Of a DNA stretch of 46,061 bases, positions 8,771 through 42,512 are shown piece after piece (the first letter of the stretch is position 1; each line of letters starts with the position of its first letter). Made by a program: the position numbers and the translations under genes. Under the pieces are notes generated by a model. That model was not told the origin of the DNA, made no database searches, and saw nothing but the letters and a program-made list of their open reading frames with translations. The stretch comes from an uncultured Woeseiaceae bacterium (GTDB lineage: Bacteria > Pseudomonadota > Gammaproteobacteria > Steroidobacterales > Woeseiaceae). The DNA lies in NCBI GenBank assembly GCA_964462665.1, contig CAYWYT010000001.1, forward strand, positions 1 through 46,061. Direction: 5' to 3'.

Positions 8771-8774
8771 CACT

Positions 8775-12241: not shown

Positions 12242-12673
12242 TTATGGTGTCTGCAATTCCAACTTACGCTTTCCCAAAATTCGCAATAAGGTATTTCTTC
12301 CGAAGCGGAGAATTGGATACATGAACCGAGCGACGCCCGGCGATCGAAACATCAATGCGTTTAGACGGTTGAAGGCGCCTGATGGCGAACTCAGCAACGC
12401 CAACATATGCAGGCAATCGGCGCCGTGATAGAAGCGACCACCATAGATGAGCACCATACCTTCGTCTAAATCCAGGGTTTCAGAGACGACCCGATCAACG
12501 ATGGCGCCGCCATCGCGAGCGTCGACCAACTCTATGTGGCCAATTGACTCCTGAAGTCGAACAAAACGGACATAGGCATTACAGACCGGGCACTCACCAT
12601 CGTATATCAGATAGTTTTCCCCGCTTCCTTCAATAGGATCTACTTCTTTGTCGTCCGTCAAATGATCACTCAA
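12242..12673 (-). CDS. DCC-family (DUF393) thiol-disulfide oxidoreductase
   Basis: LIYDGECPVCNAYVRF is the family-defining YDGxCxxC motif. The TTG start overlaps the upstream TGA (TTGA, 12670-12673). Confidence 0.7.
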   Translation of the reverse strand: MSDHLTDDKEVDPIEGSGENYLIYDGECPVCNAYVRFVRLQESIGHIELVDARDGGAIVDRVVSETLDLDEGMVLIYGGRFYHGADCLHMLALLSSPSGAFNRLNALMFRSPGVARFMYPILRFGRNTLLRILGKRKLELQTP

Positions 12674-13623
12674 GCTGAGCTACTCGTTTTTTGCGATAAA
12701 TCCGGGACTCTGTGGTTTGCGAGCCAGGCGAAGACCGCCGCCCATGGAACGTAAATCATGTACAACACTATCCACTGTGGAAATGGAGCGCGAAGCGTTA
12801 CATAGATGATGATGTGAAATGACAGGCCAAGCGGCAAATAGATCCACTTCAGTCTAGGGAAAAACAGTATCAGGAAAAACGTAGCCTGAAAAATCAACAC
12901 AATGACTTCGGAGAATTTCAGAAAATTGTGGAATTGGGAAACGTACAGCGCCAGGTCACTGTCATTTTTATACGCTTCAAGAATCATGTAGTACTGCAGC
13001 GAAATCCCGTTCGCCCATTCAAGGCCACCTCGGGTCAACTTTGAGACGACCGCTGACAAATACATCAAGGGGTAGAACAACTGCAGAAACAGAATGGGCC
13101 AGCCAGAATATTTATCCTTTACATCCAGCAGAATTTTCGATTCACCTACGGCACCGTTTCGCCGCCTTTTCAACCAGCTGTCCAAGCTCATGACCCGGCC
13201 GCTCGGACTTATTGCGAGCGAGATCAATGCCAACATCATGATCGCTTCCGGATGATGAATATCGCCGAACGAATACGTAAACGCCTGAATAACAATATTA
13301 AACAGCGCAAACAAAGCCAGACTGACATTGGTAAACAGTCCGACAAGCGATAGCAAGCCAAGCAAAAACGTGATCCAAAACAGACCAATCATAGTTGACG
13401 CATCGGGTAGTACTGGCCCTCCGAACGGTAGGGCAAGTATCTTCAAGACTAGCTGGGGCTCGTAGAGATAATCTGGAAGACTCAGCACATAAGTTAGCGC
13501 TGGAAAATTGTAGCTAAGCAGCAAATAGCACTGCAAAGCCACCAATACAACACGGAGCAACGCCAGATCAAAACACGCAGCCGGCCTGAACCAAAATTTT
13601 GCCCACCCATCGAGGGTTTTCAT
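12670..13623 (-). CDS. HTTM-domain polytopic membrane protein (vitamin K-dependent gamma-carboxylase-like)
   Basis: WAKFWFRPAACFDLALLRVVLV at the N-terminus, then ..YSFGDIHHPEAIMMLALISLAISPSGRVMSLDSW.. and ..YLSAVVSKLTRGGLEWANG.. follow the HTTM pattern (P.d..sLa.fR ... NH.yl..ll ... SlD.w ... Y..aG..Kl...W..G). About 8 hydrophobic helices. Confidence 0.65.
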   Translation of the reverse strand: MKTLDGWAKFWFRPAACFDLALLRVVLVALQCYLLLSYNFPALTYVLSLPDYLYEPQLVLKILALPFGGPVLPDASTMIGLFWITFLLGLLSLVGLFTNVSLALFALFNIVIQAFTYSFGDIHHPEAIMMLALISLAISPSGRVMSLDSWLKRRRNGAVGESKILLDVKDKYSGWPILFLQLFYPLMYLSAVVSKLTRGGLEWANGISLQYYMILEAYKNDSDLALYVSQFHNFLKFSEVIVLIFQATFFLILFFPRLKWIYLPLGLSFHIIIYVTLRAPFPQWIVLYMIYVPWAAVFAWLANHRVPDLSQKTSSSA

Positions 13624-14090
13624 TTCAGAGAACCTGACTTAGACAGTGGAATTATCGCGAGCACCTGTGACTCCTGTTCTATTGGACCGTCTCGTGTCAC
13701 TGCAATTGGAAAACTCATGATTCTGATTTCCTGCAGCTTTTGACCCGCTGGTACGAAAGTGGCAACAAATTCGATCGCGTCTCGGTTACCGTTCTCCAGA
13801 TCACGCCCCAGATCCCGATATTGCCAAAGGTGCATTCCAACAACATCCATACTCAGTTCAACTTTCTCGCCATTCTCCGTAACGCCGTCGAGAATTCGAT
13901 AAATTTCAACCGTATCGCCATCTTCAAAGGAACGGCTATACATTGCGTAGTTCACGATTGGCCAGAATCGGGTACCGATTTCCAGACCGAATACAGGTCC
14001 TAGAGAAACAACCATCTGAAGAATTAATACGAAACCGACGAATATGGAAACCAAAACTCGGTATGCAGCGGCGGCGTCAATCGGCATCAC
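13620..14090 (-). CDS. hypothetical N-terminally anchored protein (no recognisable family)
   Basis: One N-terminal TM helix (YRVLVSIFVGFVLILQMVVSL), then ~120 soluble residues. The start (GTG 14090 or ATG 14087) overlaps the upstream stop, and its own stop overlaps the HTTM ATG (ATGA). Confidence 0.6.
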   Translation of the reverse strand: MMPIDAAAAYRVLVSIFVGFVLILQMVVSLGPVFGLEIGTRFWPIVNYAMYSRSFEDGDTVEIYRILDGVTENGEKVELSMDVVGMHLWQYRDLGRDLENGNRDAIEFVATFVPAGQKLQEIRIMSFPIAVTRDGPIEQESQVLAIIPLSKSGSLK

Positions 14091-15064
14091 TCGGAGTCAC
14101 TGGTTGGCGCATTAGCTTCCGACGCTGCAGAAACTATTTCTGCAACGGTATATTCTTTTATGCGACCTGCATGGGTGAATATTATCAACTCACCAATCAG
14201 GCCAAGTGCAAATACTTGCACGCCAAGAACCAGTAGCAATGATCCCAGCAAAAGGGCCGGTCGGTCTGCAAGCCCAACATCAAAGAACAGACGTTGCGAC
14301 ACCAGGATAAGCACAACTAAAGCGCCGAGTGCGGACACGACCATACCTACCATGCCAAAGAATCTAAGAGGCTTCTTGGTGAATCGCACGAGGAAAAACA
14401 CCGTGATGATGTCCAAAACTCGATGAAAGTACTCGCGCAGCCGATACCTGCCAGAGAAATCATCTTTGGGCGACTGTGCGACGTCGACCTCGACAACGTT
14501 GAAGCCCTGCCTGCTGGCAAGTACGGGGAAGAATCGGTGCAAGTCGCCATAGAGGTGGATCTCCTCAACGAGACGCCTACTAAATAGCCTCACGCCGCAA
14601 CCGAGGTCGTTGTACGCTTCGCCGCTAAGGCACTTCAACAAGTAGTGAAAGGTTTTCCGGCGCAAGGACTCAAAAAGACCGCCAGCCCGCGGCCAGCGTC
14701 GAGCGATAACAAGATCACAGGTGTCATAAGCTCGAAAAACCTGGCCAATAGATTCCGGTTCAATCTGGTGATACGCGGGAAGCGTCAGGATTGCATCACC
14801 CTGCGCCTCGTCGAATCCTGCGGATAGAACCGTAGACTCACCGAAGTACTTGGCTAACTGAATGGTTTTGAAACTTGTATCCCTCGTTCGCAGATCATCC
14901 AATTGCTCAACGACTGCATCATTGCCACCGTCCAAGACGAAAATCGTCTCATAGGTTCTGCCGGTTTCGTCGAGCGCAGTTTTGTAACCGCTATAAAGAT
15001 CTTCCAGATTGTCAACGCGCTGCAGGACTGGTATTACCACCGATATTTGTATCGCGTCACTCAT
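14087..15064 (-). CDS. GT2-family polyprenyl-phosphate glycosyltransferase paralogue with a degenerate DXD motif
   Basis: Colinear with its upstream neighbour, including the two C-terminal TM helices. However FVDDGSKD becomes FVLDGGND, and VTMDGDLQNDP becomes LTLPAYHQIEP. Confidence 0.75.
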   Translation of the reverse strand: MSDAIQISVVIPVLQRVDNLEDLYSGYKTALDETGRTYETIFVLDGGNDAVVEQLDDLRTRDTSFKTIQLAKYFGESTVLSAGFDEAQGDAILTLPAYHQIEPESIGQVFRAYDTCDLVIARRWPRAGGLFESLRRKTFHYLLKCLSGEAYNDLGCGVRLFSRRLVEEIHLYGDLHRFFPVLASRQGFNVVEVDVAQSPKDDFSGRYRLREYFHRVLDIITVFFLVRFTKKPLRFFGMVGMVVSALGALVVLILVSQRLFFDVGLADRPALLLGSLLLVLGVQVFALGLIGELIIFTHAGRIKEYTVAEIVSAASEANAPTSDSE

Positions 15065-16020
15065 GGATTACTCGTCGTCGAATGTGAAGCAGGAGTTGCA
15101 CGCATCGTTAATCTCGCAAGCCGGCCTAAATCGATATCGCCCGTCTTGTAAACCAGTTCGGCTAGCGCTCCATTTAGGAGCAGAAACACGCCGAGGGCGA
15201 GAAGCAATATGCCCGTACCAGCAGTTGCAAGCGGCATCTGCGGCTGCGAGAACAAAGCGAACACGCTAATAAAGAGACAGGCCAGACCGGCGGCAATGAA
15301 TGGCAATGACAAAATAGTGAACCACAACATGGGTCTGCTGGAGAAAGAAACTATCGTTTTAATTGTGAGCAAGTCAACCAGCACCTTATAGATTCTTCCC
15401 AGGCCGTACTTCGACTCGCCAAACTGGCGCGCATGGTGGCGGACCTTAACTTCGGCAACGCGGGATCCCGCCAGAGATGCCATAGCCGGAATGAACCTGT
15501 GCATGTCTGAGTACAAAGGAATTTCTTTAATTACTCTAGCTCGATAGGCCTTTAGAGAGCAGCCGTTGTCCTTGATGGGGACACCAGTAATTTTTCCAAT
15601 CATCCAATTTGCGATGCGCGACGGGATTTTTCTCGTAATCAGTTTATCTTGCCGATTAAAACGCCAGCCTACGGCGATGTCGAAGCCTTCCTCTAGCTTG
15701 GACACCAGCATGTCGATATCACGAGGATCATTCTGTAAATCGCCGTCCATTGTCACGATGACCTCGCCGACCGCGCAGTCAATACCCGCTGCCATCGCCG
15801 GCGTCTGACCGTAGTTGCGACGAAAACGAACAAGCCTCAGATTTGGATCTTGTAGAGCAATTTCTTTTGCAAGCTCAAATGTCCGATCTTTGCTGCCATC
15901 GTCAACAAAAATAATCTCATAGAGGTAATTGACTTCCGACATTGCCGACGCAATGGCAGCGTGCATGGCTTCGACACTTTCTTCTTCATTGAAAAGCGGC
16001 ACAACAATGGACAAAAACAT
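15061..16020 (-). CDS. GT2-family polyprenyl-phosphate glycosyltransferase (ArnC/GtrB/DPM1-like)
   Basis: LSIVVPLFNEEESV..EIIFVDDGSKDRT..RNYGQTPAMAAGID.A.GEVIVTMDGDLQNDP..DNGCSLKAYR..MHRFIPAMA, plus two C-terminal TM helices. The start was trimmed to ATG 16018-16020 (MFLSIVVP). The track ORF runs to 16167, across the divergent promoter. Confidence 0.85.
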   Translation of the reverse strand: MFLSIVVPLFNEEESVEAMHAAIASAMSEVNYLYEIIFVDDGSKDRTFELAKEIALQDPNLRLVRFRRNYGQTPAMAAGIDCAVGEVIVTMDGDLQNDPRDIDMLVSKLEEGFDIAVGWRFNRQDKLITRKIPSRIANWMIGKITGVPIKDNGCSLKAYRARVIKEIPLYSDMHRFIPAMASLAGSRVAEVKVRHHARQFGESKYGLGRIYKVLVDLLTIKTIVSFSSRPMLWFTILSLPFIAAGLACLFISVFALFSQPQMPLATAGTGILLLALGVFLLLNGALAELVYKTGDIDLGRLARLTMRATPASHSTTSNP

Positions 16021-16130
16021 TCTCTGTCGACCCGTAGACTGACCTTGTAAGCAAAGCATTGTATAGCAGATCGTGAAAGCACCAACGACTGACTTCACAA
16101 TAACCTGATGGATGGCGGCGAGTGTCGGAG

Positions 16131-16146
16131 TGTGACCCAGTTCACA
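16131..16146. promoter_or_regulatory. perfect CRP/Vfr/Clp-type site TGTGA-N6-TCACA
   Basis: TGTGAcccagtTCACA lies in the 162-bp divergent gap between ATG 16020 (-) and ATG 16183 (+). Confidence 0.55.
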
Positions 16147-16182
16147 CTTTTGCAATATCGCATTCATCGGATACGTGGCATA

Positions 16183-18254: not shown

Positions 18255-20140
18255 TGTGTGGAATCGTTGGTATCGCGTCGTTCCCGGGCGGGAGCGTCCC
18301 GAATCAGGAAGAATTATCGCGCATGTGCAGTAGCATCCTGCATCGCGGCCCGGATGAAGACGGCCGTGAAATTATCGGTTCTGTCGCACTGGGTATGCAG
18401 CGCCTTGCAATTATCGACCTCGATGGCGGTTCGCAACCAATTCGAAACGAAGACGGTACCGTCCGTGTCGTCTTCAATGGAGAGATCTACAATTTTCAGG
18501 AGATTCGTCGCGATCTCGAACACGCCGGGCATGTGTTTCGCACCAACTCCGATACTGAAATTCTCGTTCACGCCTATGAGCAATACGGAGACGACTTTGT
18601 CCAGCGCTTGAACGGCATGTTCGCTTTTGCGCTACATGACATGGCCAGGCGACGACTACTGATTTCTCGCGACCACCTCGGCATTAAGCCGCTGTTCTAC
18701 TACAAATCGGCCAATCACCTCGTTTGGGGATCAGAGATAAAGGCACTGTTGGCCACTCGGCGGGTGCCGCGAGAGATTGACCTCAACGCCGTAGGCGAGT
18801 TCTTTGCCTGGGAATACGTGCCCGGTGCCGGAACGCTTTTTAAGGATATTTACAAGCTGGAGCCTGGTCATACTTTGGTGGTTGACCTCGATTCAGGCGA
18901 TATCACGGACTCGTGTTATTGGGACTTACCGCTTGAACCCGAAGATTCATCGCTAAGTGAGGCTGAATGGATCGAGCGCGTCGACGAGACACTTGTCGAG
19001 GCGGTGCGGCGGCAGATGATATCGGACGTTCCACTTGGAGCATTTCTGAGTGGAGGCGTGGATTCGTCACTCGTCGTTGCGGCGATGGGTGATGCGAAGA
19101 CCTTCAGTATTGGATTTGATGATCCTTCTTATAACGAACTCAAGTACTCGAAGGAGGTCGCCGAACACCTCAACGTCTCTCATACAACCGAGGTTATTCA
19201 GCCGCAGGTCGCCGATCTGTTCGAGCACCTTATGAATTTCATGGATGACCCGATCGGGGACTTCTCGATATTTCCGACCTACCTGGTGTCGAAACTTGCG
19301 CGCGAACACGTCACGGTCGCCTTGAGTGGCGATGGTGGTGACGAGCTATTTGGCGGATACGAGACCTATCTGGCCAATGACATGGCGAGAACATACGCAC
19401 GTGTCCCGGCGCCAATTCGGAACCGCATGGTAGAGCCAATCCTGAATCGATTTAGCCCAAGACCGGCGAAGAAGGGGCTTATCAATAAAGCGAAGCGCTT
19501 CGTGGAAGGGATGCACGAGCCTGAATCGCTGGGTCATGCACGGTGGCGAATCTTCATGAGCGATGAGCAACGCAAGGGCTTCTTCAGTAATGATGCGTAC
19601 GACGCTATCGACCGCAGTGCCGGAGCGCACATCCTGGCGCTGTATGAGAAAGCGCGGAATCTCCAGCCGCTGAATCGAAGCCTGTACGTTGATACTCGCA
19701 GCTATCTTGTCGACAATTGTCTCGTCAAGACAGACCGCATGTCCATGGCAGTATCGCTTGAAGCGCGGGTGCCTTTTCTGGACGTAAAACTGGCTGAACT
19801 CGCCTTCCGCATCCCGGAAAAATTCAAGATTGAGGGCCGTGAGACGAAAGCGCTGCTGAAGAAGATAGCATCCCGCAAGATACCTCGAAGCTGTGTTTAT
19901 CGGCCCAAGGAAGGTTTCTCCATTCCGATCAAGCACTGGCTCGGAACGCAATTCCGTCCCTTTCTGGAACAAGCCACTAATCCCGATCGACTGAGCGAGG
20001 CCGGCCTGTTTGACGTGCATACAATCGCCCGAATGAAGCGTGAACATCTTGAAGGATCAGCTAATCACAGTCATGTATTGTGGTCTCTGATTGTATTTGA
20101 TCAATGGAAGTCAAAGTGGCTAGAGGGAACACTGCCTTGA
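18254..20140 (+). CDS. asparagine synthase (glutamine-hydrolysing) family amidotransferase
   Basis: MCGIVGI start (Cys2 nucleophile), RGPD, GEIYN, and the PP-loop LSGGVDSS. Full length at 628 aa. The ATG overlaps the upstream TAA (TAATG). Confidence 0.9.
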   Translation: MCGIVGIASFPGGSVPNQEELSRMCSSILHRGPDEDGREIIGSVALGMQRLAIIDLDGGSQPIRNEDGTVRVVFNGEIYNFQEIRRDLEHAGHVFRTNSDTEILVHAYEQYGDDFVQRLNGMFAFALHDMARRRLLISRDHLGIKPLFYYKSANHLVWGSEIKALLATRRVPREIDLNAVGEFFAWEYVPGAGTLFKDIYKLEPGHTLVVDLDSGDITDSCYWDLPLEPEDSSLSEAEWIERVDETLVEAVRRQMISDVPLGAFLSGGVDSSLVVAAMGDAKTFSIGFDDPSYNELKYSKEVAEHLNVSHTTEVIQPQVADLFEHLMNFMDDPIGDFSIFPTYLVSKLAREHVTVALSGDGGDELFGGYETYLANDMARTYARVPAPIRNRMVEPILNRFSPRPAKKGLINKAKRFVEGMHEPESLGHARWRIFMSDEQRKGFFSNDAYDAIDRSAGAHILALYEKARNLQPLNRSLYVDTRSYLVDNCLVKTDRMSMAVSLEARVPFLDVKLAELAFRIPEKFKIEGRETKALLKKIASRKIPRSCVYRPKEGFSIPIKHWLGTQFRPFLEQATNPDRLSEAGLFDVHTIARMKREHLEGSANHSHVLWSLIVFDQWKSKWLEGTLP

Positions 20141-21117
20141 GAAAAACTCTTGTAACCGGCGCGACCGGGTTTACGGGCGGCAATGTCGCGAAACGTCTCG
20201 TAAAAGAAGGGAACGATGTTGTTGCATTCGTCCGCGAATCGAGCGATACGGCCGGCCTGGAGTCTATTGGCGTGGAATGCCGTTGCGTCGATATCCGCAA
20301 CGACCGTGATGTTGAGAGGAATTTCGCGGGCATCGGCCGGGTGTTTCACATTGCGGCAGCTTACAGGTCCGAACATGCAGATCACGGCGAATTTCACGAT
20401 GTCAATGTCAACGCAACTCGAAATTTGCTGGAGGCTTCCGTCAAGAACGGTGTCGACCGCTTTGTGCATTGTTCCACGGTTGGCGTCCAGGGCGAGATCG
20501 AGGATCCGCCAGCGTCAGAAGATTACCGCAATAATCCGGGTGATCATTACCAAGAATCAAAGCTCGACGGTGAACTCCTGGCGCTGGAGTATTTTCGAGA
20601 TCGCCTGCCGGGCTGCGTCGTGAGGCCGGTCGGAATTTATGGCCCCGGGGATACTCGATTCCTGAAGCTATTCAAGCCTATTCAGAAGGGCCACTTCGTC
20701 ATGATCGGTAAGGGCGATGTTCTCTATCACATGACGTATATCGACGATCTCGTCGACGGCTTCATGCTGGCCGGTGAGAATGATGCCGCGCTCGGCGAGG
20801 TATTTACAATCGCTGGCCCGGAATATTCGACGATTGGTGCTCTGGTCGATACGATTGCCGACGTCCTGGATAAGCCGCGTCCCCGACTGCGTGTGCCCTT
20901 CGCACCCGTTTATGCCGCGTCGGTTGTCTGTGACGTGATGTGTCGTGCCATTCGGATTAATCCACCACTGTATCCCCGTCGCGTTGAGTTCTTTGAGCTG
21001 GATCGAGCGTTCTCGACCGACAAGGCACAACGTATGTTGGGGTACAAACCAAAAACCAGCCTCCGGGACGGCATAGCCCGAACCGCCGCCTGGTATCGCC
21101 AGAACGGTCTGATTTGA
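20104..21117 (+). CDS. NAD-dependent epimerase/dehydratase (extended SDR)
   Basis: LVTGATGFTGGNVAKRL (GxxGxxG) and YQESK (YxxxK). The start is uncertain: ATG 20104 overlaps asnB by 37 nt, and TTG 20137 gives a TTGA overlap. Confidence 0.85.
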   Translation: MEVKVARGNTALRKTLVTGATGFTGGNVAKRLVKEGNDVVAFVRESSDTAGLESIGVECRCVDIRNDRDVERNFAGIGRVFHIAAAYRSEHADHGEFHDVNVNATRNLLEASVKNGVDRFVHCSTVGVQGEIEDPPASEDYRNNPGDHYQESKLDGELLALEYFRDRLPGCVVRPVGIYGPGDTRFLKLFKPIQKGHFVMIGKGDVLYHMTYIDDLVDGFMLAGENDAALGEVFTIAGPEYSTIGALVDTIADVLDKPRPRLRVPFAPVYAASVVCDVMCRAIRINPPLYPRRVEFFELDRAFSTDKAQRMLGYKPKTSLRDGIARTAAWYRQNGLI

Positions 21118-22623
21118 ATGGCGGCCCTAGCTCGCAACCCGACGGCGCTGGAGCGTGAATCCTTCGACATCATTGTGATTGGCGGTGGCATTTACGGGGC
21201 GATGTTGTCTTTGGAAGCAGGCCGCTATGGACTTCGTTCACTGATGCTGGAGCGCTCCGACTTCGGCGGCAGCACTAGCTTCAATAATCTTCGCATCGTG
21301 CACGGTGGCCTTAGATATCTGCAGACCCTGCATTTGTCCCGTTTTCAGGAGTCGGTAAGCGAGCGCCGCTGGTTTTTGCAGCACTTTCCCGATCTGGTCC
21401 GCCCCCTCCCCTGCATGATGCCTCTCTATGGTGGCTTGGTACGAAACAAAGCGGTAATGCGTGCTGCCCTGACCGCTAACGATTGGCTATCCAATTCCAG
21501 GAATGTCGCTTTACCACCTGAATGCCGACTGCCCAATGGCCGTATACTAAATTCGGCGGATACCATTAATAAGTATCCGCTCGTTCGTCGCGCCGGACTG
21601 AACGGTGCTGCGCTGTGGTACGACGCCGTTATGCCCGAGTGTCATCGGGTTCTTATGGAGGTTATGCACTGGGCCGCCGAATCAGGTGCAGCCGCTCTAA
21701 ATTACGTCGAGGTGGACAAGCTGATCCAATCCGGTCGCCGCGTCACGGGCGTCATTGCGTCCGACAAGATAAGCGGCGTTCAGCACGAATTCCGGGCCCC
21801 CGTAGTTGTAAACGCGGCTGGACCGGATTCTGTCCGGTTATTGAAACGTTTCGGTATCGACATGCCGAAACTCTTTCGGCCATCCTGGGCATGGAATCTG
21901 CTGTTCGACCGGGAATCGCTATCACGGAGTGCGTTGGCAATTCAGCCGCCAACACCCGGTGGCCGAATGTATTTTGTCCATTCGTTTGGCGGCCGGCTGT
22001 TTGCCGGAACCGGCCACGCACCCGCTAAGGCCGACGACGTATCAATCCTGGCATCGTCAGACGAGGTGTTGGCGATGATCGGCGACTTAAATTGTGCAAT
22101 ACCTGGGCTGCGGCTTGAGGCGTCAGAGATCAATCGGGTGTTCGCCGGTCGCCTTCCAGTGAAGCATCCCGGCAGTATTGAGCTGGCTGACACGGCAACA
22201 CTCGTGAATCACGCCAAGCAAACGGGGATAGACGGCTTGTTCACTGTATCCGGCGTTAAATACACCACCGCCCGATCAACCGCTGCGGCCCTTATTCGAC
22301 TTATCGTGGAGTCACTCGGCGATCATCCGGCGCGCCGCGAAACAGCGTTACCCAGTCGTCCAACGCCTGTCGAATTCGATTTGCGCAGCGACAGTATCGC
22401 GACCCCTCAAAATCGGGAGAGCCGGCTGAGATATATGATCGAAGCTGAAGCGCCGACATCGCTGGAAGATCTGTTGATGCGCCGCGGCAACCTTGCGGAC
22501 GACAAGTCAATGGCCGAATACCTTGCTGATGACGCCTGCTCTGCTTTTGGCTGGGATAACGAGCGCTCGAAGCTGGAGAAAACGTCTTTGTTGCGGAGTT
22601 TTTCGGCAGGGCGGGCAATTTGA
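21118..22623 (+). CDS. FAD-dependent oxidoreductase, glycerol-3-phosphate dehydrogenase (GlpD/DAO)-like
   Basis: FDIIVIGGGIYGAMLSLEAGRYGLRSLMLERSDFGGSTSFNNLRIVHGGLRYLQ matches the GlpD N-terminal pattern. The ATG directly follows the upstream TGA (TGAATG). Confidence 0.75.
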   Translation: MAALARNPTALERESFDIIVIGGGIYGAMLSLEAGRYGLRSLMLERSDFGGSTSFNNLRIVHGGLRYLQTLHLSRFQESVSERRWFLQHFPDLVRPLPCMMPLYGGLVRNKAVMRAALTANDWLSNSRNVALPPECRLPNGRILNSADTINKYPLVRRAGLNGAALWYDAVMPECHRVLMEVMHWAAESGAAALNYVEVDKLIQSGRRVTGVIASDKISGVQHEFRAPVVVNAAGPDSVRLLKRFGIDMPKLFRPSWAWNLLFDRESLSRSALAIQPPTPGGRMYFVHSFGGRLFAGTGHAPAKADDVSILASSDEVLAMIGDLNCAIPGLRLEASEINRVFAGRLPVKHPGSIELADTATLVNHAKQTGIDGLFTVSGVKYTTARSTAAALIRLIVESLGDHPARRETALPSRPTPVEFDLRSDSIATPQNRESRLRYMIEAEAPTSLEDLLMRRGNLADDKSMAEYLADDACSAFGWDNERSKLEKTSLLRSFSAGRAI

Positions 22624-24702: not shown

Positions 24703-25698
24703 GTGAGTGTTGCAATGACACAGGAAACGAAAAGACCCACAAAACTAGCGGCAATTATTCGCGCCGTTGTTAGTATTGGTCTGATTCTGGGCGTCGTTCT
24801 AAGCATGGACTCGCGTGAGCTTCTCGACGCCTTGTTTAGTGTTTCGCTGACGACCTTATTGGTGCTCACGCTGATTGACCTTGCATTGCGCGTCTTCTCC
24901 GCCTATCGCTGGCAGGTGTTGATCGCCACCACCAGCAAGGCGACTACCCTGTGGGACACGATGAGAATCACGTTTACTTCGAGTTTCCTTGGTCAGGCCC
25001 TTCCCGGCGTCATCGGCGTCGAAGCGCTGCGCATCTATAGTCTGTCGAGAGCCACCGGGAACATGGCCGGGGCATTCGCATCCGTCGTCGCTGACCGTGT
25101 ATTCGGATTGGCCAGTCTGGCGATCGTCATTTTCATCGGGCTTGCCGTGGGTCCTGAAGAGTTGCAATCACTAATTCTCAAGCCTCTGTTGTTCGTCGTG
25201 GTATTGGTGGCCTTCGGTGTTCTTCTGGTTACCGTGCCGGCACTCAGGTCGGTTACGCACCGCATTATTCCCGGAATACTACGAGACCGCATACAGGACT
25301 GGGCCGACAAGGTTTATGAATGTTTTGACCAATATCGATCGCGACCCATGCTCATCGCTCTTTCACTATTGCTCGCCACTATTTTTCAGTTCGGCAGAGT
25401 CATGCTCTTCTATGCCGCCGCATTATTGATAGGTAGCTCGGCCGACTTCATTTACTTTATTGCTGTCATTCCAATTGTAATGTTCGCCGCACTATTGCCA
25501 ATTTCGATTGCTGGTCTTGGCGTGCGCGAGGCGGGTCTCGTTTATCTTTTCTCGGAATTTGCCGTAATGGACAATGCATCTGCTTTTACAATATCGATTC
25601 TGGTATTCGTATCGGGAATCCTGAGTACGCTACCGGGCGCCTGGTTTTATACTCAAGACCGGAAGAAGACCAGTGAAGCGGTGGACCCAACCCCTTGA
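24703..25698 (+). CDS. UPF0104 / lysylphosphatidylglycerol-synthase-TM (flippase-like) membrane protein
   Basis: About 8 TM helices. ..RVFSAYRWQVLI..FLGQALPGVIGVEALRIYSL fits the family motif (..Rw..ll....lPg..GGe..R). GTG 24703 or ATG 24715 could be the start. Confidence 0.65.
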   Translation: MSVAMTQETKRPTKLAAIIRAVVSIGLILGVVLSMDSRELLDALFSVSLTTLLVLTLIDLALRVFSAYRWQVLIATTSKATTLWDTMRITFTSSFLGQALPGVIGVEALRIYSLSRATGNMAGAFASVVADRVFGLASLAIVIFIGLAVGPEELQSLILKPLLFVVVLVAFGVLLVTVPALRSVTHRIIPGILRDRIQDWADKVYECFDQYRSRPMLIALSLLLATIFQFGRVMLFYAAALLIGSSADFIYFIAVIPIVMFAALLPISIAGLGVREAGLVYLFSEFAVMDNASAFTISILVFVSGILSTLPGAWFYTQDRKKTSEAVDPTP

Positions 25699-39662: not shown

Positions 39663-40712
39663 CTAGTCGGAAAAGTCTTGTGTTGGAATCGGCATTGCGG
39701 AATCGACTGAATAAGCAGAAACCCCAAAAATTTCAAGTACACGATGGACATCATCTTGCTGTTGTTCGCTCAGGTAAGATTGCCACGAAAGCACGAGCTT
39801 CTCGGCGGACGCCTTTTGCCCCATCTGATAGCTTGCCTGTTGCGACGGGCGCTCTAGAGTCTGCTCGTCCGGCACATTCGACAACTGCAACGCAGTCACC
39901 AAGTTATCCCAGGCGCCTTCTTGTCGTGTCACCAGGTTTTCATAGAATGCGAGATGAGGATCATGACCCGAACGCTCCAGATGGGGCACATTCTCGATGC
40001 ACCAAATCGCAGTATGAACCTCTGCCATAGACTTCAAATCGGCCAATTGTGGCGCAACGCTGGCGAGATAGTCCTGTACTAGCTTGGGCTGGTCAAGATA
40101 TCGATCGAGCAGTTGCCGAATTGAGCGCTTATTCCATTCCTGTCCTGAACGTCTGCACACGGATGCCAGGACAGCGCAAGGATGTCGCACGATAATTGCT
40201 GAGCGGTAGCCATACTCTCTTTGCATCCAGCGGGCCAGGAGATTAGCCCGTATGAATTTGATGACTCTCGGCAAACCCACCTGACGACGATATATTAACC
40301 ATCGACGGTAAGTCCGTCGGTATTGTACAGCCGTATCCTTTATACCTCTTTTCGTAAGAATCGTCCGGGGGTGCGGAAACAAGCGGTCCGGGCGCGTGCG
40401 TAGTCCGGGCCACAAACCCGCGTTTGTTCCTTCGATGATGCCATCAAGAAACACTCGCAATTCCGCGCAAGTTTCTTCAGCACGCACATAACGATTCGCG
40501 AATTCGTACGCACCGCGAACCGCCTGCGGATGTAGTGGTTCGAATACCGTACCAAGACCGTTTGATTCAGCGATAGCGTCCTGGACCCACGTCGTACCGC
40601 TTCGTCCGGAACCAAAGACAAATACCTGCCGGGTTTTCGAAGCTGCCAACGGAGGTTCAGGTGCTGTATTCAGGAATTTTTGCAAATCAGATCTACAGGT
40701 CTCGCTGACCAA
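39663..40712 (-). CDS. sulfotransferase
   Basis: VFVFGSGRSGTTWVQDAI (5'-PSB) and AIIVRHPCAVLASV (3'-PB-like). Confidence 0.75.
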   Translation of the reverse strand: MVSETCRSDLQKFLNTAPEPPLAASKTRQVFVFGSGRSGTTWVQDAIAESNGLGTVFEPLHPQAVRGAYEFANRYVRAEETCAELRVFLDGIIEGTNAGLWPGLRTRPDRLFPHPRTILTKRGIKDTAVQYRRTYRRWLIYRRQVGLPRVIKFIRANLLARWMQREYGYRSAIIVRHPCAVLASVCRRSGQEWNKRSIRQLLDRYLDQPKLVQDYLASVAPQLADLKSMAEVHTAIWCIENVPHLERSGHDPHLAFYENLVTRQEGAWDNLVTALQLSNVPDEQTLERPSQQASYQMGQKASAEKLVLSWQSYLSEQQQDDVHRVLEIFGVSAYSVDSAMPIPTQDFSD

Positions 40713-42289
40713 CGATAGACGCGAAGGCCATACTTTAGGTCGACGGCATCGGCAGTCGCGTATCTCTCAATCACATCAGCGACAGCATTGTTGACTCTGG
40801 TTCGGTTTCTCCACGCAGGCGCGTGCACTATGACAACGCCACTCGGGTTGCACGCAATAACCTGCTGCATGTCCGCTACGTCTGCGATGGCAACTCGACC
40901 TGTGCGCGGATCCAGTCCATCTTCGCTTCTCAAGCTATTGATGTCGGCGAGAGTCGTCGCGTTCAAAACAATATCAACATCTCCCAGATAATAAATTGAT
41001 TGTAATGGCTGGCTGCTGACCGTAACCGCGACGGAGTCTGCGATTTTCCTCAGGTCCTCGCTCGCAGCAGACCAATCCGTTGCATAACGGTCCCAGTATA
41101 CTGGAGGCTTTGTTGGTCGAGCCAGAATCATTCGAACGCCGGTTTCGACAGCTGGCGTCGTTGCCAAAATGAAAGCGGCGACACTTGACAACAAAATGAG
41201 TGCGGCGACGCTCTTCCCATTATCTGAAAACAGCGGCGTAGCAATCTGGCCAAAGCCATCACGAATTCTTGCATGAAGGATCCGACCCATCGAATCCAAA
41301 CCCACACCCAATAATATCAGCATGAAGGGGATGGCATAAAAAATGAACCGTTCTGCTCTCATGCCACCGAAAGATTGCGCAAAAAAAGCGACCAAGAAAA
41401 TACTCGCACAAAACGAAGCCGGAACCGGTTTCGCCATCAACGCTGCGATTAATGCCACCGGCAACAAACTCCAAAGTACTGCCAGCTGGGCGTTGAAGTG
41501 TCGATGATAGTAAAGGGGTCCGTCGCCTGTATTCCACATTGCCGACGATCGGTATACTCCCATCAAGTCAGCGATGAGCTCTCGCCCGAGAACGGCTGAA
41601 ATAAGAATTACCGCTGCGCCAGCAAGGGCTGCGACTAGTCCTGGCCAACCGCGCGGCATCCGATCCTTCAGCCAGCTCGAGTTGAGTACGAGTAACCAGA
41701 GGGCTATACCTCCAACGCCAATCAACGTTGTAATCTGCAGGTGCAAGCCGAGAAAGAGGAGCACAACAATCGCAAGAATCAGAAAGATTCGTCGCTGGCC
41801 GTCCATGCCTGATCGGGCGAGTGAATAACTGGCGCACGCGAGTAGAAAAAAAACCAGTGCGTGCAGCGAGTAAAAACGTATGTGCTGGGACAAGAATATC
41901 GCACCCGGCAAAATCGCGAGCAATCCCGAAGCGATAATCGCTGAACTTAGACTAAAATTCAGAGCAGTCCATGCGAATACGGCCGTGACGAGAAGTGCGC
42001 CAATCAGTGCGCCCAGAATACGGACAGAATTTACGCTTCCATCGCTCTGCGATTGAACAAAACCAACGAGTCGTGTGAAGATGGATGCCCGATGATACTC
42101 ACCATCGGCGATCGAAAGTATCCCGCTATCGACCCAAGACTTGCCTGCAATCAGGTGGTAGAGCTCATCCGTTATCGGTTGATGTTCCAGGTTGGACAAC
42201 CTGATCCCCACCGCAAAAACGAATACAACTGCCACATAAGCCAACAAGCGTCCCAGAGGAATCGCACTACTGTCGTGCATTGCTCTCAT
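40670..42289 (-). CDS. GT-C fold glycosyltransferase (ArnT/PMT, GT39/GT83-like) with a C-terminal soluble domain
   Basis: About 11 TM helices. The first loop HQPITDELYHLIAGKSW carries the acidic DE motif typical of ArnT/PMT_2 enzymes. About 170 non-hydrophobic C-terminal residues. The start was trimmed to ATG 42287-42289 (track: 42442). Confidence 0.65.
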   Translation of the reverse strand: MRAMHDSSAIPLGRLLAYVAVVFVFAVGIRLSNLEHQPITDELYHLIAGKSWVDSGILSIADGEYHRASIFTRLVGFVQSQSDGSVNSVRILGALIGALLVTAVFAWTALNFSLSSAIIASGLLAILPGAIFLSQHIRFYSLHALVFFLLACASYSLARSGMDGQRRIFLILAIVVLLFLGLHLQITTLIGVGGIALWLLVLNSSWLKDRMPRGWPGLVAALAGAAVILISAVLGRELIADLMGVYRSSAMWNTGDGPLYYHRHFNAQLAVLWSLLPVALIAALMAKPVPASFCASIFLVAFFAQSFGGMRAERFIFYAIPFMLILLGVGLDSMGRILHARIRDGFGQIATPLFSDNGKSVAALILLSSVAAFILATTPAVETGVRMILARPTKPPVYWDRYATDWSAASEDLRKIADSVAVTVSSQPLQSIYYLGDVDIVLNATTLADINSLRSEDGLDPRTGRVAIADVADMQQVIACNPSGVVIVHAPAWRNRTRVNNAVADVIERYATADAVDLKYGLRVYRWSARPVDLICKNS

Positions 42290-42512
42290 AACTCGTACCT
42301 TTTCAATGGCTTTCGTCGTGCGCAATTTGAAACGACGTATTGCTGTGCGGCCGCACCGGCAGATTCTAGCATAGCAATCCGGCAGTTCTGTGATGTACAT
42401 ATCAAGCTGGCATTGGATTGCGACCGGCATGAAATGGTCCAATTCGCTGTAGACGGCACTACTTGCGGCAGCTATTCTCCCGCCAAACCAGTAACAGAAT
42501 GTTCACCAGATA

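What the first reader, a model, noticed from the sequence alone, without database searches (positions are those of the whole stretch)
12242..16020. Five-gene translationally coupled operon: GT2, pseudo-GT2, small anchored protein, HTTM, DCC (candidate undescribed system)
Every junction on the minus strand is a stop/start overlap: ATGA at 15061-15064, TGATG/GTGA at 14085-14090, ATGA at 13620-13623 and TTGA at 12670-12673. This argues for stoichiometric co-production. The products are listed in the next sentences. First, an ArnC/GtrB-type polyprenyl-phosphate glycosyltransferase. Second, a DXD-degenerate paralogue of it. Third, a 156-aa N-terminally anchored protein with no family. Fourth, a 317-aa HTTM (vitamin-K-dependent gamma-carboxylase-like) membrane protein. 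Fifth, a 143-aa DCC/DUF393 CxxC thiol oxidoreductase. HTTM and DCC genes are known neighbours, but their function is unassigned. The only characterised bacterial HTTM relative I know is B. subtilis SdpB, which works with the small SdpA in maturing a disulfide-containing peptide. The order (small anchored protein, then HTTM) and the sizes here resemble sdpA-sdpB. Coupling this pair to lipid-carrier glycosyltransferases inside an EPS locus matches no pathway I know. It suggests a redox-coupled (thiol or quinone) modification of a lipid-linked sugar or of a periplasmic substrate.
Basis: partly seen in the sequence, partly recalled or inferred. Interest (0 to 1): 0.8.

Follow-up and report, generated by a model that had tools for sequence, protein, structure and literature searches.

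The report
Split carboxylase-like enzyme in polysaccharide locus
Five tightly packed genes in a bacterial slime-polysaccharide locus encode a lipid-linked-sugar synthase with a dead twin, plus a three-piece bacterial relative of the human vitamin-K-dependent carboxylase, which hints that vitamin-K-type chemistry is used on sugars, though its substrate is still unknown.

Summary
Five minus-strand ORFs (12242-16020) are joined by four consecutive stop/start overlaps, the tightest run in the window.

- **GT2a** is an ArnC/GtrB-type enzyme.
- **GT2b** is a conserved DXD-less pseudo-enzyme.
- **DCC** passes Pfam.
- **The "HTTM" protein** fails every HMM itself. However, its family partly hits HTTM, and its AlphaFold model (pLDDT 94) matches only human GGCX in the PDB. 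The catalytic Lys218, Trp223 and His160 equivalents are invariant.

The block is not one fixed five-gene system. The invariant core is the small anchored protein plus HTTM, usually with DCC, which is fused in Nitrospirales and replaced by a GST in one locus. This core sits in polysaccharide loci of Gamma- and Alphaproteobacteria and Nitrospirales. The GT2a/GT2b pair accompanies it in 13 of 23 informative loci, but at variable positions, and is absent in two cultured Novosphingobium.

The small protein belongs to a family with no Pfam model (774 clusters). It has the architecture of DUF5819, recently predicted to complete a GGCX-like complex with HTTM-DCC.

The best reading is a split GGCX-like quinol/O2 enzyme that modifies a polysaccharide intermediate, joined here to a lipid-linked-sugar module. 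It is a new variant of a known kind. Substrate and chemistry are untested.

The parts
15061..16020 (-). GT2a: catalytically intact ArnC/GtrB-type polyprenyl-phosphate glycosyltransferase. The longest ORF extends to 16167; Met50 at 16020 is the likely start.
   Evidence: PF00535 at 1.8e-30. NCBIfam ArnC model 174 bits and PgfS 152 bits, both below cut-off. The DDGS, DGD and RRNYGQ motifs are invariant in 11 orthologs. Two C-terminal TM segments.
14087..15064 (-). GT2b: conserved pseudo-glycosyltransferase paralogue, the presumed non-catalytic partner of GT2a.
   Evidence: PF00535 at 2.3e-12. The DXD motif is replaced by P[ASG]Y and other catalytic motifs are lost, but its own motifs (TLPAYxQ, RWPRAG, DLGCG) are conserved in all 11 orthologs. 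It always lies directly downstream of GT2a.
13620..14090 (-). Small subunit: one N-terminal TM helix (with invariant Gln24), the invariant loop WPxxxY(P/A)MY, and an alpha/beta periplasmic domain of about 100 aa. Proposed cap or substrate-side subunit of the HTTM enzyme.
   Evidence: It lies directly upstream of the HTTM-like gene in every related locus. The family has 774 clusters, and 0 of 137 plus 0 of 26 members hit any Pfam model. The domain folds at pLDDT of about 90. K/R residues precede the TM, indicating N-in topology.
12670..13623 (-). HTTM-like catalytic membrane subunit, equivalent to the GGCX transmembrane 'epoxidase' domain. About 8 TM helices, N-in and C-in.
   Evidence: AF2 model pLDDT 94, pTM 0.90. 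The top 16 PDB matches are all human GGCX (probability 1.00, TMq up to 0.68), with noise below. The only viral match is the Yasminevirus epoxidase-desaturase. 18 of 60 family members hit PF05090. hhalign aligns K195 with K218, W203 with W223 and HH123/124 with N159/H160, and all are invariant.
12242..12673 (-). DCC1-like (DUF393) thiol-disulfide oxidoreductase, cytoplasmic. Proposed redox partner.
   Evidence: PF04134 at 7.6e-12, 46.9 bits against a cut-off of 27.8. The DGxCP[VFL]C motif is present in 24 of 25 loci. DCC is fused to the C-terminus of HTTM in Nitrospirales and in P0050/P0095. It has no TM segment or signal peptide.
20104..22623 (+). Co-occurring pair (not part of the operon): a 3-beta-HSD/HpnA-like SDR (20104-21117) and a GlpD/GlpO-like FAD oxidoreductase (21118-22623).
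   Evidence: Pfam and NCBIfam assignments. In L004/L014, L010, L015 and L019 the orthologous pair sits directly upstream of small-HTTM-DCC. The pair lies within 10 kb in 11 loci.
24703..25698 (+). Candidate flippase for a lipid-linked sugar (MprF-type 'flippase-like domain').
   Evidence: PF03706 at 3.4e-30; TIGR00374 at 63.9 bits, above its cut-off. The role in this pathway is inferred only.
40670..42442 (-). Candidate GT-C-type consumer of the GT2a/b lipid-linked sugar.
   Evidence: At least 8 TM segments in residues 58-433, followed by a soluble C-terminal domain. The Glyco_transf_22 hit is weak, E = 0.018. This is a tentative assignment.

Best explanation
The block joins two modules that this lineage has placed in one translationally coupled operon.

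**Module 1 (GT2a + GT2b).** This is a heteromeric ArnC/GtrB-type synthase, with one active and one pseudo-enzyme subunit, each carrying two C-terminal TM helices. It loads a sugar onto polyprenyl phosphate at the cytoplasmic face. After flipping, that sugar would be used outside the membrane to decorate the polysaccharide.

- The HTTM-like subunit is the membrane 'epoxidase' core. A reduced membrane quinone binds near the periplasmic leaflet and invariant Lys195 (equivalent to GGCX Lys218, stacked on Trp203, equivalent to Trp223) deprotonates it. Reaction with O2 gives a quinone epoxide and a strong base.
- That base removes a proton next to a carboxylate on a polysaccharide-pathway substrate, which is held by the His123/His124 site and by the periplasmic domain of the small subunit. 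The small subunit plays the part of the GGCX last TM helix plus lumenal domain.
- The carbanion is then carboxylated or re-protonated.
- The cytoplasmic DCC protein uses its CxxC dithiol to re-reduce the quinone, a VKOR-like role.

**Shown:** homology, fold, conserved catalytic residues, gene adjacency and fusion, topology signals, and recurrence in polysaccharide loci.

**Inferred:** physical complex, quinone dependence, the direction of DCC electron flow, the substrate, and the chemical outcome.
For: - **Fold.** The only PDB matches of the pLDDT-94 model are 16 human GGCX entries covering all 317 residues. The only viral match is the Yasminevirus gamma-carboxylase-like epoxidase-desaturase.
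- **Catalytic residues.** K195=K218, W203=W223, HH123/124 near N159/H160 and H270=H287 by hhalign against a GGCX sequence verified in the PDB. These residues are invariant in 60 family members. Their roles in GGCX are taken from PMC12647623.
- **Superfamily.** 18 of 60 members hit Pfam HTTM and 10 of 60 hit DoxD.
- **Core module.** The small gene is always immediately upstream of HTTM, with a 4-nt overlap or a gap of 14 nt or less. DCC is immediately downstream or fused. Its redox motif is conserved in 24 of 25 loci. A GST takes its place in L040.
- **Topology.** K/R counts give an N-in/C-in HTTM with K195 and HH on the outer face, the small domain outside, and DCC inside.
- **Precedent.** DUF5819 (an N-terminal TM plus a domain) with an HTTM-DCC fusion is predicted by AF3 to rebuild whole GGCX, and MloH is a fused bacterial carboxylase. 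Giant-virus HTTM-only epoxidases paired with VKOR are proposed to act on lipids.
- **Polysaccharide link.** The trio lies in polysaccharide loci in Woeseiaceae, Steroidobacteraceae, Sphingomonadaceae and Nitrospirales.
- **GT2 module.** The GT2a/GT2b pair is always adjacent and the pseudo-enzyme features are conserved. A GtrA-family flippase gene sits beside the pair in L037. A flippase-like gene and a GT-C-like gene are present in the window.
Against: - The window protein itself hits no HTTM, SdpB or DoxD model, and a profile search of PDB sequences finds nothing.
- hhalign support is modest: E = 5.5e-4 with probability 30% against a single-sequence template.
- GGCX Asp263 appears to be an invariant Gln here, and N290 and F299 could not be placed.
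- The small family shows no detectable similarity to GGCX residues 361-630 (E = 0.45), to DUF5819 or to SdpA.
- In the forced fusion model the family's most conserved loop (residues 38-52) is low-confidence and pTM is only 0.68, so no interface was established.
- DCC is predicted to be cytoplasmic, whereas the VKOR active site faces the lumen or periplasm.
- Some relatives lack DCC altogether.
- From my own knowledge, not tested here: many of these Proteobacteria use ubiquinone, not a naphthoquinone, and epoxidation of ubiquinol is not established biology.
- No expression or biochemical data exist.
Confidence: 0.5

Rival explanations
1. All five proteins form one stoichiometric pathway, and the polyprenyl-phosphate sugar made by GT2a/GT2b is itself the substrate that the HTTM/small/DCC enzyme modifies before it is transferred to the polysaccharide.
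For: - All five genes are translationally coupled here and in the Woeseiaceae-type relatives.
- Orthologous GT2a/GT2b pairs (300-530 bits) lie within 10 kb of the trio in 13 of 23 informative loci, including a Nitrospirales genome.
- A lipid-anchored substrate suits an active site at the outer leaflet.
- The GlpD-like and SDR pair that also travels with the trio could act on the same lipid-linked sugar, by analogy with DprE1/DprE2. That analogy is my inference.
Against: - The trio occurs in polysaccharide operons with no ArnC-type pair within 10 kb: two cultured Novosphingobium, and L038, L020, L008 and L009.
- The position and strand of the pair vary.
- More distant small+HTTM pairs occur with no glycosyltransferase at all.
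Confidence: 0.2
2. The HTTM-like protein is a DoxD/DoxX-type quinone-binding membrane anchor and not an oxygenase. With DCC it shuttles electrons between cytoplasmic thiols and the quinone pool, for example to support a redox step of the neighbouring GlpD-like and SDR enzymes. The small protein is a structural subunit.
For: - 10 of 60 family members hit the DoxD model, and 2 hit the TQO large-subunit model.
- DCC is cytoplasmic and carries a CxxC motif.
- The putative Asp263 equivalent is Gln.
- A GlpD-like quinone-reducing flavoenzyme co-occurs with the trio.
Against: - The fold match is to GGCX over the whole length, with nothing else above noise.
- The residues that are invariant are the ones GGCX uses for quinol deprotonation and substrate carboxylate binding, and they lie on the outer face, away from DCC.
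- An invariant periplasmic partner domain has no obvious role in simple electron shuttling.
Confidence: 0.15
3. An SdpA/SdpB-like system. The small and HTTM-like proteins mature or export a secreted peptide or protein, for example a surface protein of this XrtA/PEP-CTERM-type locus, and their place among polysaccharide genes is incidental.
For: - The gene order and sizes resemble sdpA-sdpB (about 156 and 317 aa).
- 10 of 60 HTTM-like members weakly hit the SdpB model, best E = 1.3e-6.
- GGCX and MloH act on amino-acid residues.
- The AsnB-like gene resembles the XrtA/PEP-CTERM amidotransferase.
Against: - No member hits the SdpA model, and the window proteins hit neither model.
- No SdpC-like or other small precursor gene is seen next to the trio in any locus.
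- The polysaccharide context recurs across three phyla with different neighbouring genes, which argues against incidental placement.
Confidence: 0.07

Closest known systems
[quoted passage not shown]
   Same: - The transmembrane HTTM fold matches over all 317 residues (TMq up to 0.68, probability 1.00).
- The catalytic Lys218, the stacking Trp223, the His160 region and His287 have invariant equivalents.
- The active site is predicted on the non-cytoplasmic face.
   Different: - Here the enzyme is split. There is no covalently attached last TM helix or lumenal domain (GGCX 361-758). A separate small protein with no detectable sequence similarity (E = 0.45) takes that position in the gene order.
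- Asp263 appears to be Gln.
- Sequence identity is about 17%.
- The genomic context is polysaccharide synthesis, not Gla proteins.
DUF5819 protein + HTTM-DCC1-like fusion protein (Melghirimyces thermohalophilus A0A1G6IAS5/A0A1G6IBF2; AF3-predicted complex, bioRxiv 10.64898/2026.08.19.745780)
   Same: The three-part logic is the same: a small protein with an N-terminal TM helix plus one domain, encoded next to an HTTM protein that is joined to or followed by a DCC domain. That pair is predicted to rebuild the overall GGCX shape. HTTM-DCC fusions also occur in this family.
   Different: - None of 163 scanned members of the small family hits Pfam DUF5819 or any other Pfam family.
- The HTTM-like clade falls mostly below the Pfam HTTM threshold.
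- The context here is polysaccharide loci of Gram-negative bacteria.
- Structural equivalence of the two small-protein families was not tested.
MloH (Streptomyces malonomycin pathway), a bacterial vitamin-K-dependent-type carboxylase
   Same: A bacterial HTTM enzyme with demonstrated carboxylation next to a carboxylate on a non-Gla-protein substrate. It shows that the chemistry is portable (as cited).
   Different: MloH is one polypeptide (HTTM fused to a DUF5819-like region) and sits in a PKS-NRPS cluster.
Giant-virus VKOR + gamma-carboxylase-like epoxidase(-desaturase) modules (PMC13486548)
   Same: - An HTTM-only 'epoxidase' core that keeps Lys218 but lacks GGCX 374-418.
- It is paired with a thiol-redox partner.
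- It is proposed to act on a non-protein (lipid) substrate.
- The Yasminevirus protein is the only viral structural match of the model.
   Different: The partner there is VKOR, a membrane protein with a lumenal active site, not a soluble cytoplasmic DCC. The viral core is fused to a desaturase. No small capping subunit is reported.
B. subtilis SdpA/SdpB
   Same: SdpB is an HTTM-superfamily membrane protein encoded after a small partner gene of similar size.
   Different: The window proteins hit neither TIGR04033 nor TIGR04034. Only 10 of 60 relatives weakly hit SdpB. There is no SdpC-like substrate gene and no DCC in that system.
ArnC / GtrB / GacI-GacJ-type polyprenyl-phosphate glycosyltransferases
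   Same: GT2a has the GT-A domain with intact DXD and two C-terminal TM helices, and its best model hits are ArnC and PgfS. Dependence on a partner protein has a precedent in GacI-GacJ (my own knowledge).
   Different: The partner here is a full-length, DXD-less paralogue, not a small membrane protein. Scores are far below the ArnC and PgfS equivalog cut-offs (174 against 529 and 152 against 500), so the sugar is unknown.

Membership tests
HTTM / GGCX superfamily (Pfam PF05090, clan with DoxD/DoxX) | Match to the Pfam HTTM profile | tested here: inconclusive
   The window protein has no hit even at E <= 10. 18 of 60 family members hit PF05090 (best 3.2e-11) and 10 of 60 hit DoxD.
HTTM / GGCX superfamily (Pfam PF05090, clan with DoxD/DoxX) | Fold of the GGCX transmembrane domain | tested here: met
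   The AF2 model has pLDDT 94. The 16 best PDB matches are all GGCX (probability 1.00, TMq 0.60-0.68, about 317 columns). The next matches have probability <= 0.07.
HTTM / GGCX superfamily (Pfam PF05090, clan with DoxD/DoxX) | Catalytic general base Lys218 with stacking Trp223 | tested here: met
   hhalign aligns K195 with K218 and W203 with W223. Both are invariant in 60 sequences.
HTTM / GGCX superfamily (Pfam PF05090, clan with DoxD/DoxX) | Asn159/His160 substrate-carboxylate site | tested here: inconclusive
   The invariant His123-His124 aligns to this gappy stretch. Which His pairs with H160 is ambiguous.
Vitamin-K-dependent carboxylase (functional GGCX/MloH type) | Asp263 assisting Lys218 | tested here: not met
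   The global hhalign places the nearly invariant Gln246 at Asp263. This is a tentative alignment near a low-confidence stretch.
Vitamin-K-dependent carboxylase (functional GGCX/MloH type) | Region 374-418 (Tyr395, Met401) and the lumenal domain needed for carboxylation | tested here: not met
   It is absent from the HTTM-like polypeptide. The small protein sits in the matching topological place (a TM helix followed by an aromatic/Met-rich invariant loop) but shows no detectable similarity (E = 0.45). Structural equivalence could not be tested.
Vitamin-K-dependent carboxylase (functional GGCX/MloH type) | Quinol- and O2-dependent epoxidation coupled to CO2 fixation | not testable with these tools
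   This needs biochemistry.
DCC1-like / DUF393 thiol-disulfide oxidoreductase (PF04134) | Profile match above the gathering score, plus the N-terminal DxxCxxC motif | tested here: met
   46.9 bits against a cut-off of 27.8. D25-G-E-C28-P-V-C31 is present, and the motif is found in 24 of 25 related loci.
DUF5819 (partner of HTTM-DCC proteins) | Match to the Pfam DUF5819 profile | tested here: not met
   0 of 26 and 0 of 137 members of the small family hit it or any other Pfam family.
DUF5819 (partner of HTTM-DCC proteins) | Architecture (N-terminal TM helix plus one domain) and a gene adjacent to HTTM(-DCC) | tested here: met
   One TM segment at residues 3-38, then a confident alpha/beta domain. 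The gene is directly upstream of HTTM in all loci.
SdpA/SdpB antimicrobial-peptide maturation system | Matches to TIGR04034 (SdpA) and TIGR04033 (SdpB), with an SdpC-like precursor gene nearby | tested here: not met
   The window proteins give no hit at E <= 0.1. The SdpB model is weakly hit by 10 of 60 relatives. SdpA is hit by none. No precursor-like gene appears in any neighbourhood.
ArnC (undecaprenyl-phosphate Ara4FN transferase) / GtrB-type polyprenyl-phosphate GT2 | GT-A domain with DXD and two C-terminal TM helices | tested here: met
   GT2a has PF00535 at 1.8e-30, an invariant DGD motif, and TM segments at 230-260 and 262-291.
ArnC (undecaprenyl-phosphate Ara4FN transferase) / GtrB-type polyprenyl-phosphate GT2 | Equivalog-level score, meaning the same substrate as ArnC or PgfS | tested here: not met
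   174 bits against a cut-off of 529 (ArnC), and 152 against 500 (PgfS). It is the same enzyme type, but the sugar is unknown.

The most novel reading that the evidence does not exclude
The small/HTTM/DCC enzyme applies vitamin-K-carboxylase chemistry to a glycan. It would use quinol and O2 to remove the proton next to a sugar-borne carboxylate, either C5 of a uronic acid or an amide-linked Glu/Asp substituent installed by the AsnB-like enzyme. It would then add CO2 to create malonate-type (Gla-like) calcium-binding groups on an exopolysaccharide, or alternatively epimerise the residue. That would be the first GGCX-type enzyme acting on a carbohydrate and a new class of polysaccharide modification.
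Probability: 0.12. Interest if true: 0.9.

Novelty: new variant of a known kind. Interest (0 to 1): 0.62.

Why it matters
Bacterial relatives of the vitamin-K-dependent carboxylase are widespread, but only one (MloH) has a known reaction. The HTTM-DCC gene pairing has stood unexplained for two decades.

This finding shows three things. A divergent HTTM clade keeps the catalytic lysine site. It always comes with a small membrane-anchored partner from a family with no Pfam model (at least 774 sequence clusters). And it is embedded in polysaccharide biosynthesis loci across three bacterial lineages.

That gives a concrete, testable setting for what these enzymes do, because two cultured Novosphingobium strains carry the module in a simple operon.

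If the enzyme modifies a glycan or a lipid-linked sugar, it would extend vitamin-K-type oxygenation and carboxylation chemistry from proteins to carbohydrates. It could also explain unusual acidic, cation-binding exopolysaccharides in sediment bacteria.

Separately, the GT2 plus conserved pseudo-GT2 pair suggests a heteromeric form of the ArnC/GtrB enzyme class.

Tried and rejected
1. **Direct HMM assignment of the window HTTM-like and small proteins.** I tried Pfam at E <= 10 and NCBIfam at E <= 0.1 and got nothing. Only family-wide scans and structure settled the HTTM call.
2. **Sequence search of the PDB.** The family profile and P0097 gave no hits.
3. **Paired small+HTTM alignment for a complex model.** An unpaired block alignment misaligned under MAFFT until I reduced it to 25 + 16 rows.
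4. **The resulting fused model.** It folds both parts but does not place the conserved loop. Foldseek still aligned only the HTTM part, because the fusion order is opposite to GGCX. That makes it uninformative about whether the small domain equals the GGCX lumenal domain.
5. **hhalign of the small family against GGCX 361-630.** No similarity.
6. **The apparent natural small-HTTM fusion in L017.** I rejected it as evidence. Relative to four related loci it differs by a G5 homopolymer and a 1-nt deletion in a long-read MAG. It would also join a periplasmic domain to a cytoplasmic N-terminus.
7. **Search of annotated plasmids for DUF5819- or SdpA-named neighbours to compare with.** The only hit was another Novosphingobium copy, annotated 'hypothetical'.
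8. **Promoter and terminator scan.** No signal above shuffled controls.
9. **Literature.** No paper in the held library links HTTM proteins to polysaccharide synthesis, and 'HTTM domain' occurs in only three papers.
10. **Chance adjacency of the trio to polysaccharide genes.** Rejected because the association recurs with rearranged neighbours in different phyla.

Full report
**1. The observation**

The five minus-strand ORFs are present as described:
- GT2a 15061-16167 is the longest ORF. That agrees with the 309-333-aa orthologs and starts just before the GT2 motif.
- GT2b 14087-15064.
- A 155/156-aa protein at 13620-14090.
- A 317-aa membrane protein at 12670-13623.
- A 143-aa protein at 12242-12673 with a TTG start.

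Reading the minus strand at each junction shows ATGA, GTGATG, ATGA and TTGA, so all four are stop/start overlaps. Of 24 same-strand junctions between the main ORFs of the window, seven are 1- or 4-nt overlaps and four of those are in this block. It is the most tightly coupled run in the window, although overlaps also occur elsewhere. A promoter and terminator motif scan found nothing above shuffled controls inside the block.

**2. The five proteins**

*GT2a and GT2b.* Pfam gives Glycos_transf_2 for GT2a (1.8e-30) and GT2b (2.3e-12). In NCBIfam both GT2s score best against ArnC and PgfS, but far below the equivalog cut-offs. They are the same enzyme type with an unknown sugar. Both have two C-terminal TM segments. 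I aligned eleven ortholog pairs. GT2a keeps NEE, DDGS, RRNYGQ and DGD without exception. GT2b has lost all of them (DGD is replaced by P-A/S/G-Y) while keeping motifs of its own (TLPAYxQ, RWPRAG, DLGCG). GT2b is therefore a maintained pseudo-enzyme. It always sits directly after GT2a, which suggests a heteromeric synthase.

*DCC.* Pfam gives DCC1-like for the last protein (46.9 bits against a cut-off of 27.8). Its motif DGxCP[VFL]C is present in 24 of 25 related loci, and the protein has no TM segment or signal peptide.

*The small and HTTM-like proteins.* Neither gets any hit from Pfam, even at E <= 10, or from NCBIfam.

**3. Is the 317-aa protein an HTTM protein?**

- A homolog search found 97 relatives.
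- Scanning 60 of them individually, 18 hit Pfam HTTM (best 3.2e-11) and 10 hit DoxD. Ten weakly hit the SdpB model (best 1.3e-6).
- An AlphaFold2 model built with the 60-sequence alignment is very confident (pLDDT 94.1, pTM 0.90).
- Against the PDB, the first 16 matches are all human GGCX (probability 1.00, TMq 0.60-0.68, about 317 aligned columns). Everything below has probability <= 0.07.
- Against predicted viral structures, the single real match is the Yasminevirus 'desaturase' A0A5K0UBG6. A 2026 PNAS paper describes that protein as a gamma-carboxylase-like vitamin K epoxidase fused to a desaturase.

I recalled the GGCX sequence from memory and verified it as 100% identical to the deposited chains. 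Its numbering reproduces the published C99, N159, H160, K218, W223, D263, F299, Y395 and M401.

hhalign of the family profile against GGCX gives E = 5.5e-4 over 203 columns. It aligns:
- Lys195 with Lys218, the general base that deprotonates vitamin K hydroquinone.
- Trp203 with Trp223, which stacks on that lysine.
- His123-His124 with the Asn159-His160 stretch that binds the substrate carboxylate.

The residue roles are from PMC12647623. Lys195, Trp203 and His124 are invariant in all 60 sequences. A global alignment adds His270 = His287. It tentatively puts the nearly invariant Gln246 at Asp263, and it leaves N290 and F299 unplaced.

The HTTM call is thus right at the level of fold, superfamily and core catalytic site. 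This is a divergent clade that current HMMs mostly miss.

**4. The small protein**

- It has one N-terminal TM segment preceded by basic residues, then an invariant loop WPxxxY(P/A)MY, then a domain of about 100 aa.
- Word-based searches found only 10 and then 30 relatives. An exhaustive profile search found 774 clusters at 50% identity (464 at E <= 1e-10), nearly all stand-alone proteins of 140-200 aa.
- None of 26 + 137 members hits any Pfam family, so it is not recognisable as DUF5819 or SdpA.
- Invariant positions are Gln24 (inside the TM helix), Pro43 and Met49. Tyr47, Tyr50, Gly57 and Gly134 are nearly invariant.
- A profile comparison with GGCX residues 361-630 found nothing (E = 0.45).

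A 2026 preprint reports that DUF5819 proteins have the same architecture (an N-terminal TM helix plus one domain). They are encoded next to an HTTM-DCC1-like fusion protein and are predicted by AlphaFold 3 to form a complex resembling whole GGCX. In that model the DUF5819 TM helix overlays a GGCX helix and the domain sits where the lumenal domain is. The preprint also notes that MloH, the malonomycin carboxylase, has the two parts fused.

The small protein here is the architectural and positional counterpart of DUF5819, but it belongs to a different or much diverged family.

I tried to test the complex. An unpaired block alignment was accepted. It gave a model in which both parts fold (small domain pLDDT about 90) but the conserved loop is disordered and pTM is 0.68. 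Foldseek on that model aligned only the HTTM part, because the domain order is opposite to GGCX. The complex remains inferred.

**5. Gene neighbourhoods**

I collected 40 loci and searched their ORFs with the window's own proteins.

*(a) The small gene and HTTM.* The small gene is immediately upstream of the HTTM-like gene in every locus, with a 4-nt overlap or a gap of at most 14 nt. The exceptions are L008 and L009, where it is split by frameshifts.

*(b) DCC.* DCC is immediately downstream, or fused to the HTTM C-terminus in Nitrospirales (L022, L024, L026, L030), in L009 (P0050) and in P0095.
- In L040 a glutathione S-transferase sits in its place.
- In L006 and L039 there is no thiol partner.

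*(c) The full five-gene block.* It occurs only in the window's own organism and in Woeseiaceae-type relatives at about 65% identity (L007/L011, L012).

*(d) The GT2a/GT2b pair elsewhere.* The orthologous pair (300-530 bits) lies in various positions:
- 5-8 kb away in L010, L014, L015, L017, L019, L028 and L029.
- About 2 kb away on the other strand in L013/L037, next to a GtrA-family flippase gene and a third GT2.
- 4.5 kb away on the other strand in a Nitrospirales chromosome (L022).
- In total it accompanies the trio in 13 of 23 loci with enough flank.
- It is absent within 10 kb in two cultured Novosphingobium, where the operon is GT2-GT4-Wzx-unknown-small-HTTM-DCC. It is also absent in L008, L009, L020 and L038.

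*(e) The GlpD/GlpO-like FAD enzyme and 3-beta-HSD/HpnA-like SDR pair.* In the window this pair is at 20104-22623. It sits directly upstream of the small gene in L004/L014, L010, L015 and L019, and lies within 10 kb in 11 loci.

*(f) Distant relatives.* Below about 41% identity the small+HTTM pair is found outside polysaccharide loci.

Taken together, the invariant unit is small+HTTM, usually with a thiol-redox partner. One clade of it is dedicated to polysaccharide loci. The GT2 pair and the FAD/SDR pair are frequent but non-obligatory companions. An apparent small-HTTM fusion in L017 is most likely an indel artefact.

**6. Topology**

Family-wide K/R counts show basic residues concentrated in the N-terminus, the 138-173 loop, the 254-258 turn and the C-terminus. 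That implies an N-in/C-in protein of about eight TM helices. Lys195, the His-His motif and the WANG loop fall on the periplasmic side, as in GGCX, whose loop after TM1 is lumenal (the C99-C450 disulfide is my own knowledge). The small protein is N-in with its domain outside. DCC, being signal-less and fused to the cytoplasmic C-terminus in some lineages, is cytoplasmic.

**7. The wider locus**

The window is a large polysaccharide locus. It contains:
- five GT4s,
- a heparinase II/III-like protein,
- an AsnB-like amidotransferase resembling the XrtA/PEP-CTERM type,
- a NodU-like carbamoyltransferase,
- three sulfotransferases,
- Wzy, Wza and Wzc-like genes,
- UDP-glucose dehydrogenase,
- a flippase-like MprF-type protein,
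- a polytopic protein with a weak GT-C hit.

The product is probably an acidic, sulfated, decorated heteropolysaccharide. The closest named relative of the HTTM-like protein is from a Woeseiaceae MAG.

**8. Most likely mechanism**

*Module 1.* GT2a/GT2b is a heteromeric polyprenyl-phosphate sugar synthase. It supplies a side-branch donor that is flipped (by the flippase-like or GtrA proteins) and used by a GT-C-type enzyme.

*Module 2.* The HTTM-like subunit, capped on its outer face by the small subunit, is a split GGCX-type enzyme. It would work as follows:
1. Lys195 deprotonates a bound quinol.
2. O2 converts the quinol to an epoxide and generates a strong base.
3. The base abstracts a proton next to a carboxylate of a polysaccharide intermediate.
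4. DCC regenerates the reduced quinone from the cytoplasmic side.

The fold, residues, adjacency, fusions and context are shown. The complex, cofactor, substrate and outcome are inferred. I put this at about 0.5. The rivals are given separately: the single-pathway reading at 0.2, a DoxD-type redox anchor at 0.15, and an SdpAB-like peptide system at 0.07.

**9. Comparison with what is known, and novelty**

The HTTM-DCC pairing and, since 2026, a small-TM-protein + HTTM-DCC complex have been described, but only as predictions. MloH and GGCX are the only members with known chemistry. Giant-virus HTTM-only modules are proposed to act on lipids. I found no paper that connects HTTM proteins with polysaccharide synthesis, and PGAP annotates the Novosphingobium copies as hypothetical proteins.

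New here are:
- a divergent HTTM clade that keeps the lysine site,
- a large small-subunit family with no Pfam model,
- the consistent polysaccharide-locus setting,
- the GT2/pseudo-GT2 companion pair.

I rate it a new variant of a known kind, with interest 0.62.

Noticed in passing
window 36329-37132 (-), 37227-38243 (+), 39663-40712 (-), 22801-24612 (+): Three sulfotransferase-family genes and a NodU-like carbamoyltransferase lie in the same locus. This suggests a sulfated and carbamoylated acidic exopolysaccharide, which is unusual chemistry for a bacterial EPS.
   Followed up: partly
window 40670-42442 (-): A 590-aa polytopic protein with at least 8 TM segments followed by a soluble C-terminal domain. 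It has only a weak Glyco_transf_22 (GT-C) hit, E = 0.018. It is a candidate periplasmic transferase that uses the GT2a/b lipid-linked sugar.
   Followed up: partly
window 24703-25698 and 25695-27389 (+): An MprF-type 'flippase-like domain' protein is translationally coupled (4-nt overlap) to a 564-aa protein with one N-terminal TM segment and no family.
   Followed up: no
window 16108-17079 (+): An ORF transcribed divergently from GT2a has no Pfam or NCBIfam hit but is conserved (251-285 bits, 275-287 aa) at the same position in L007, L011 and L012. Its true start is probably later than the longest ORF, which overlaps the long form of GT2a.
   Followed up: partly
window 4580-6337 (-): A 585-aa protein with no family and no TM segment is conserved (554-574 bits) in the syntenic Woeseiaceae-type loci.
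   Followed up: no
L040 11028-11699: In a 39%-identical relative, a glutathione S-transferase gene occupies the position that DCC has elsewhere, directly after the HTTM-like gene. An Acyl_transf_3 fragment and BacA (undecaprenyl-diphosphatase) lie nearby. This suggests that thiol-redox partners are interchangeable.
   Followed up: no
L017 9515-10966: The small and HTTM-like genes read as one 483-aa ORF. Compared with four related loci, the stop region differs by a G5 homopolymer and a 1-nt deletion in a long-read MAG, so it is probably an assembly indel and not a real fusion.
   Followed up: yes
L036 (Novosphingobium pentaromativorans US6-1 plasmid pLA5, NZ_CP009295.1) 13522-15382: The trio is plasmid-borne in a cultured strain. 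The HTTM-like gene is annotated as two separate hypothetical CDSs (13974-14198 and 14322-14945), so it may be disrupted or mis-annotated. Kdo-synthesis genes and an LTA-synthase-family gene are nearby.
   Followed up: no
L008 9528-9989 and L009 9462-9999: In two loci the small-protein gene is split into two ORFs by a frameshift, while the HTTM(-DCC) gene is intact. These are either sequencing errors or decaying copies. IS/transposase genes flank L008.
   Followed up: no
window 8691-10799 (+) and the syntenic genes in L004, L007, L010, L012, L014-L019, L028, L029: A heparinase II/III-like protein (a lyase/epimerase fold acting at C5 of uronic acids) is almost always within a few kb of the trio in the gammaproteobacterial loci. 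It may bear on which residue is modified.
   Followed up: partly
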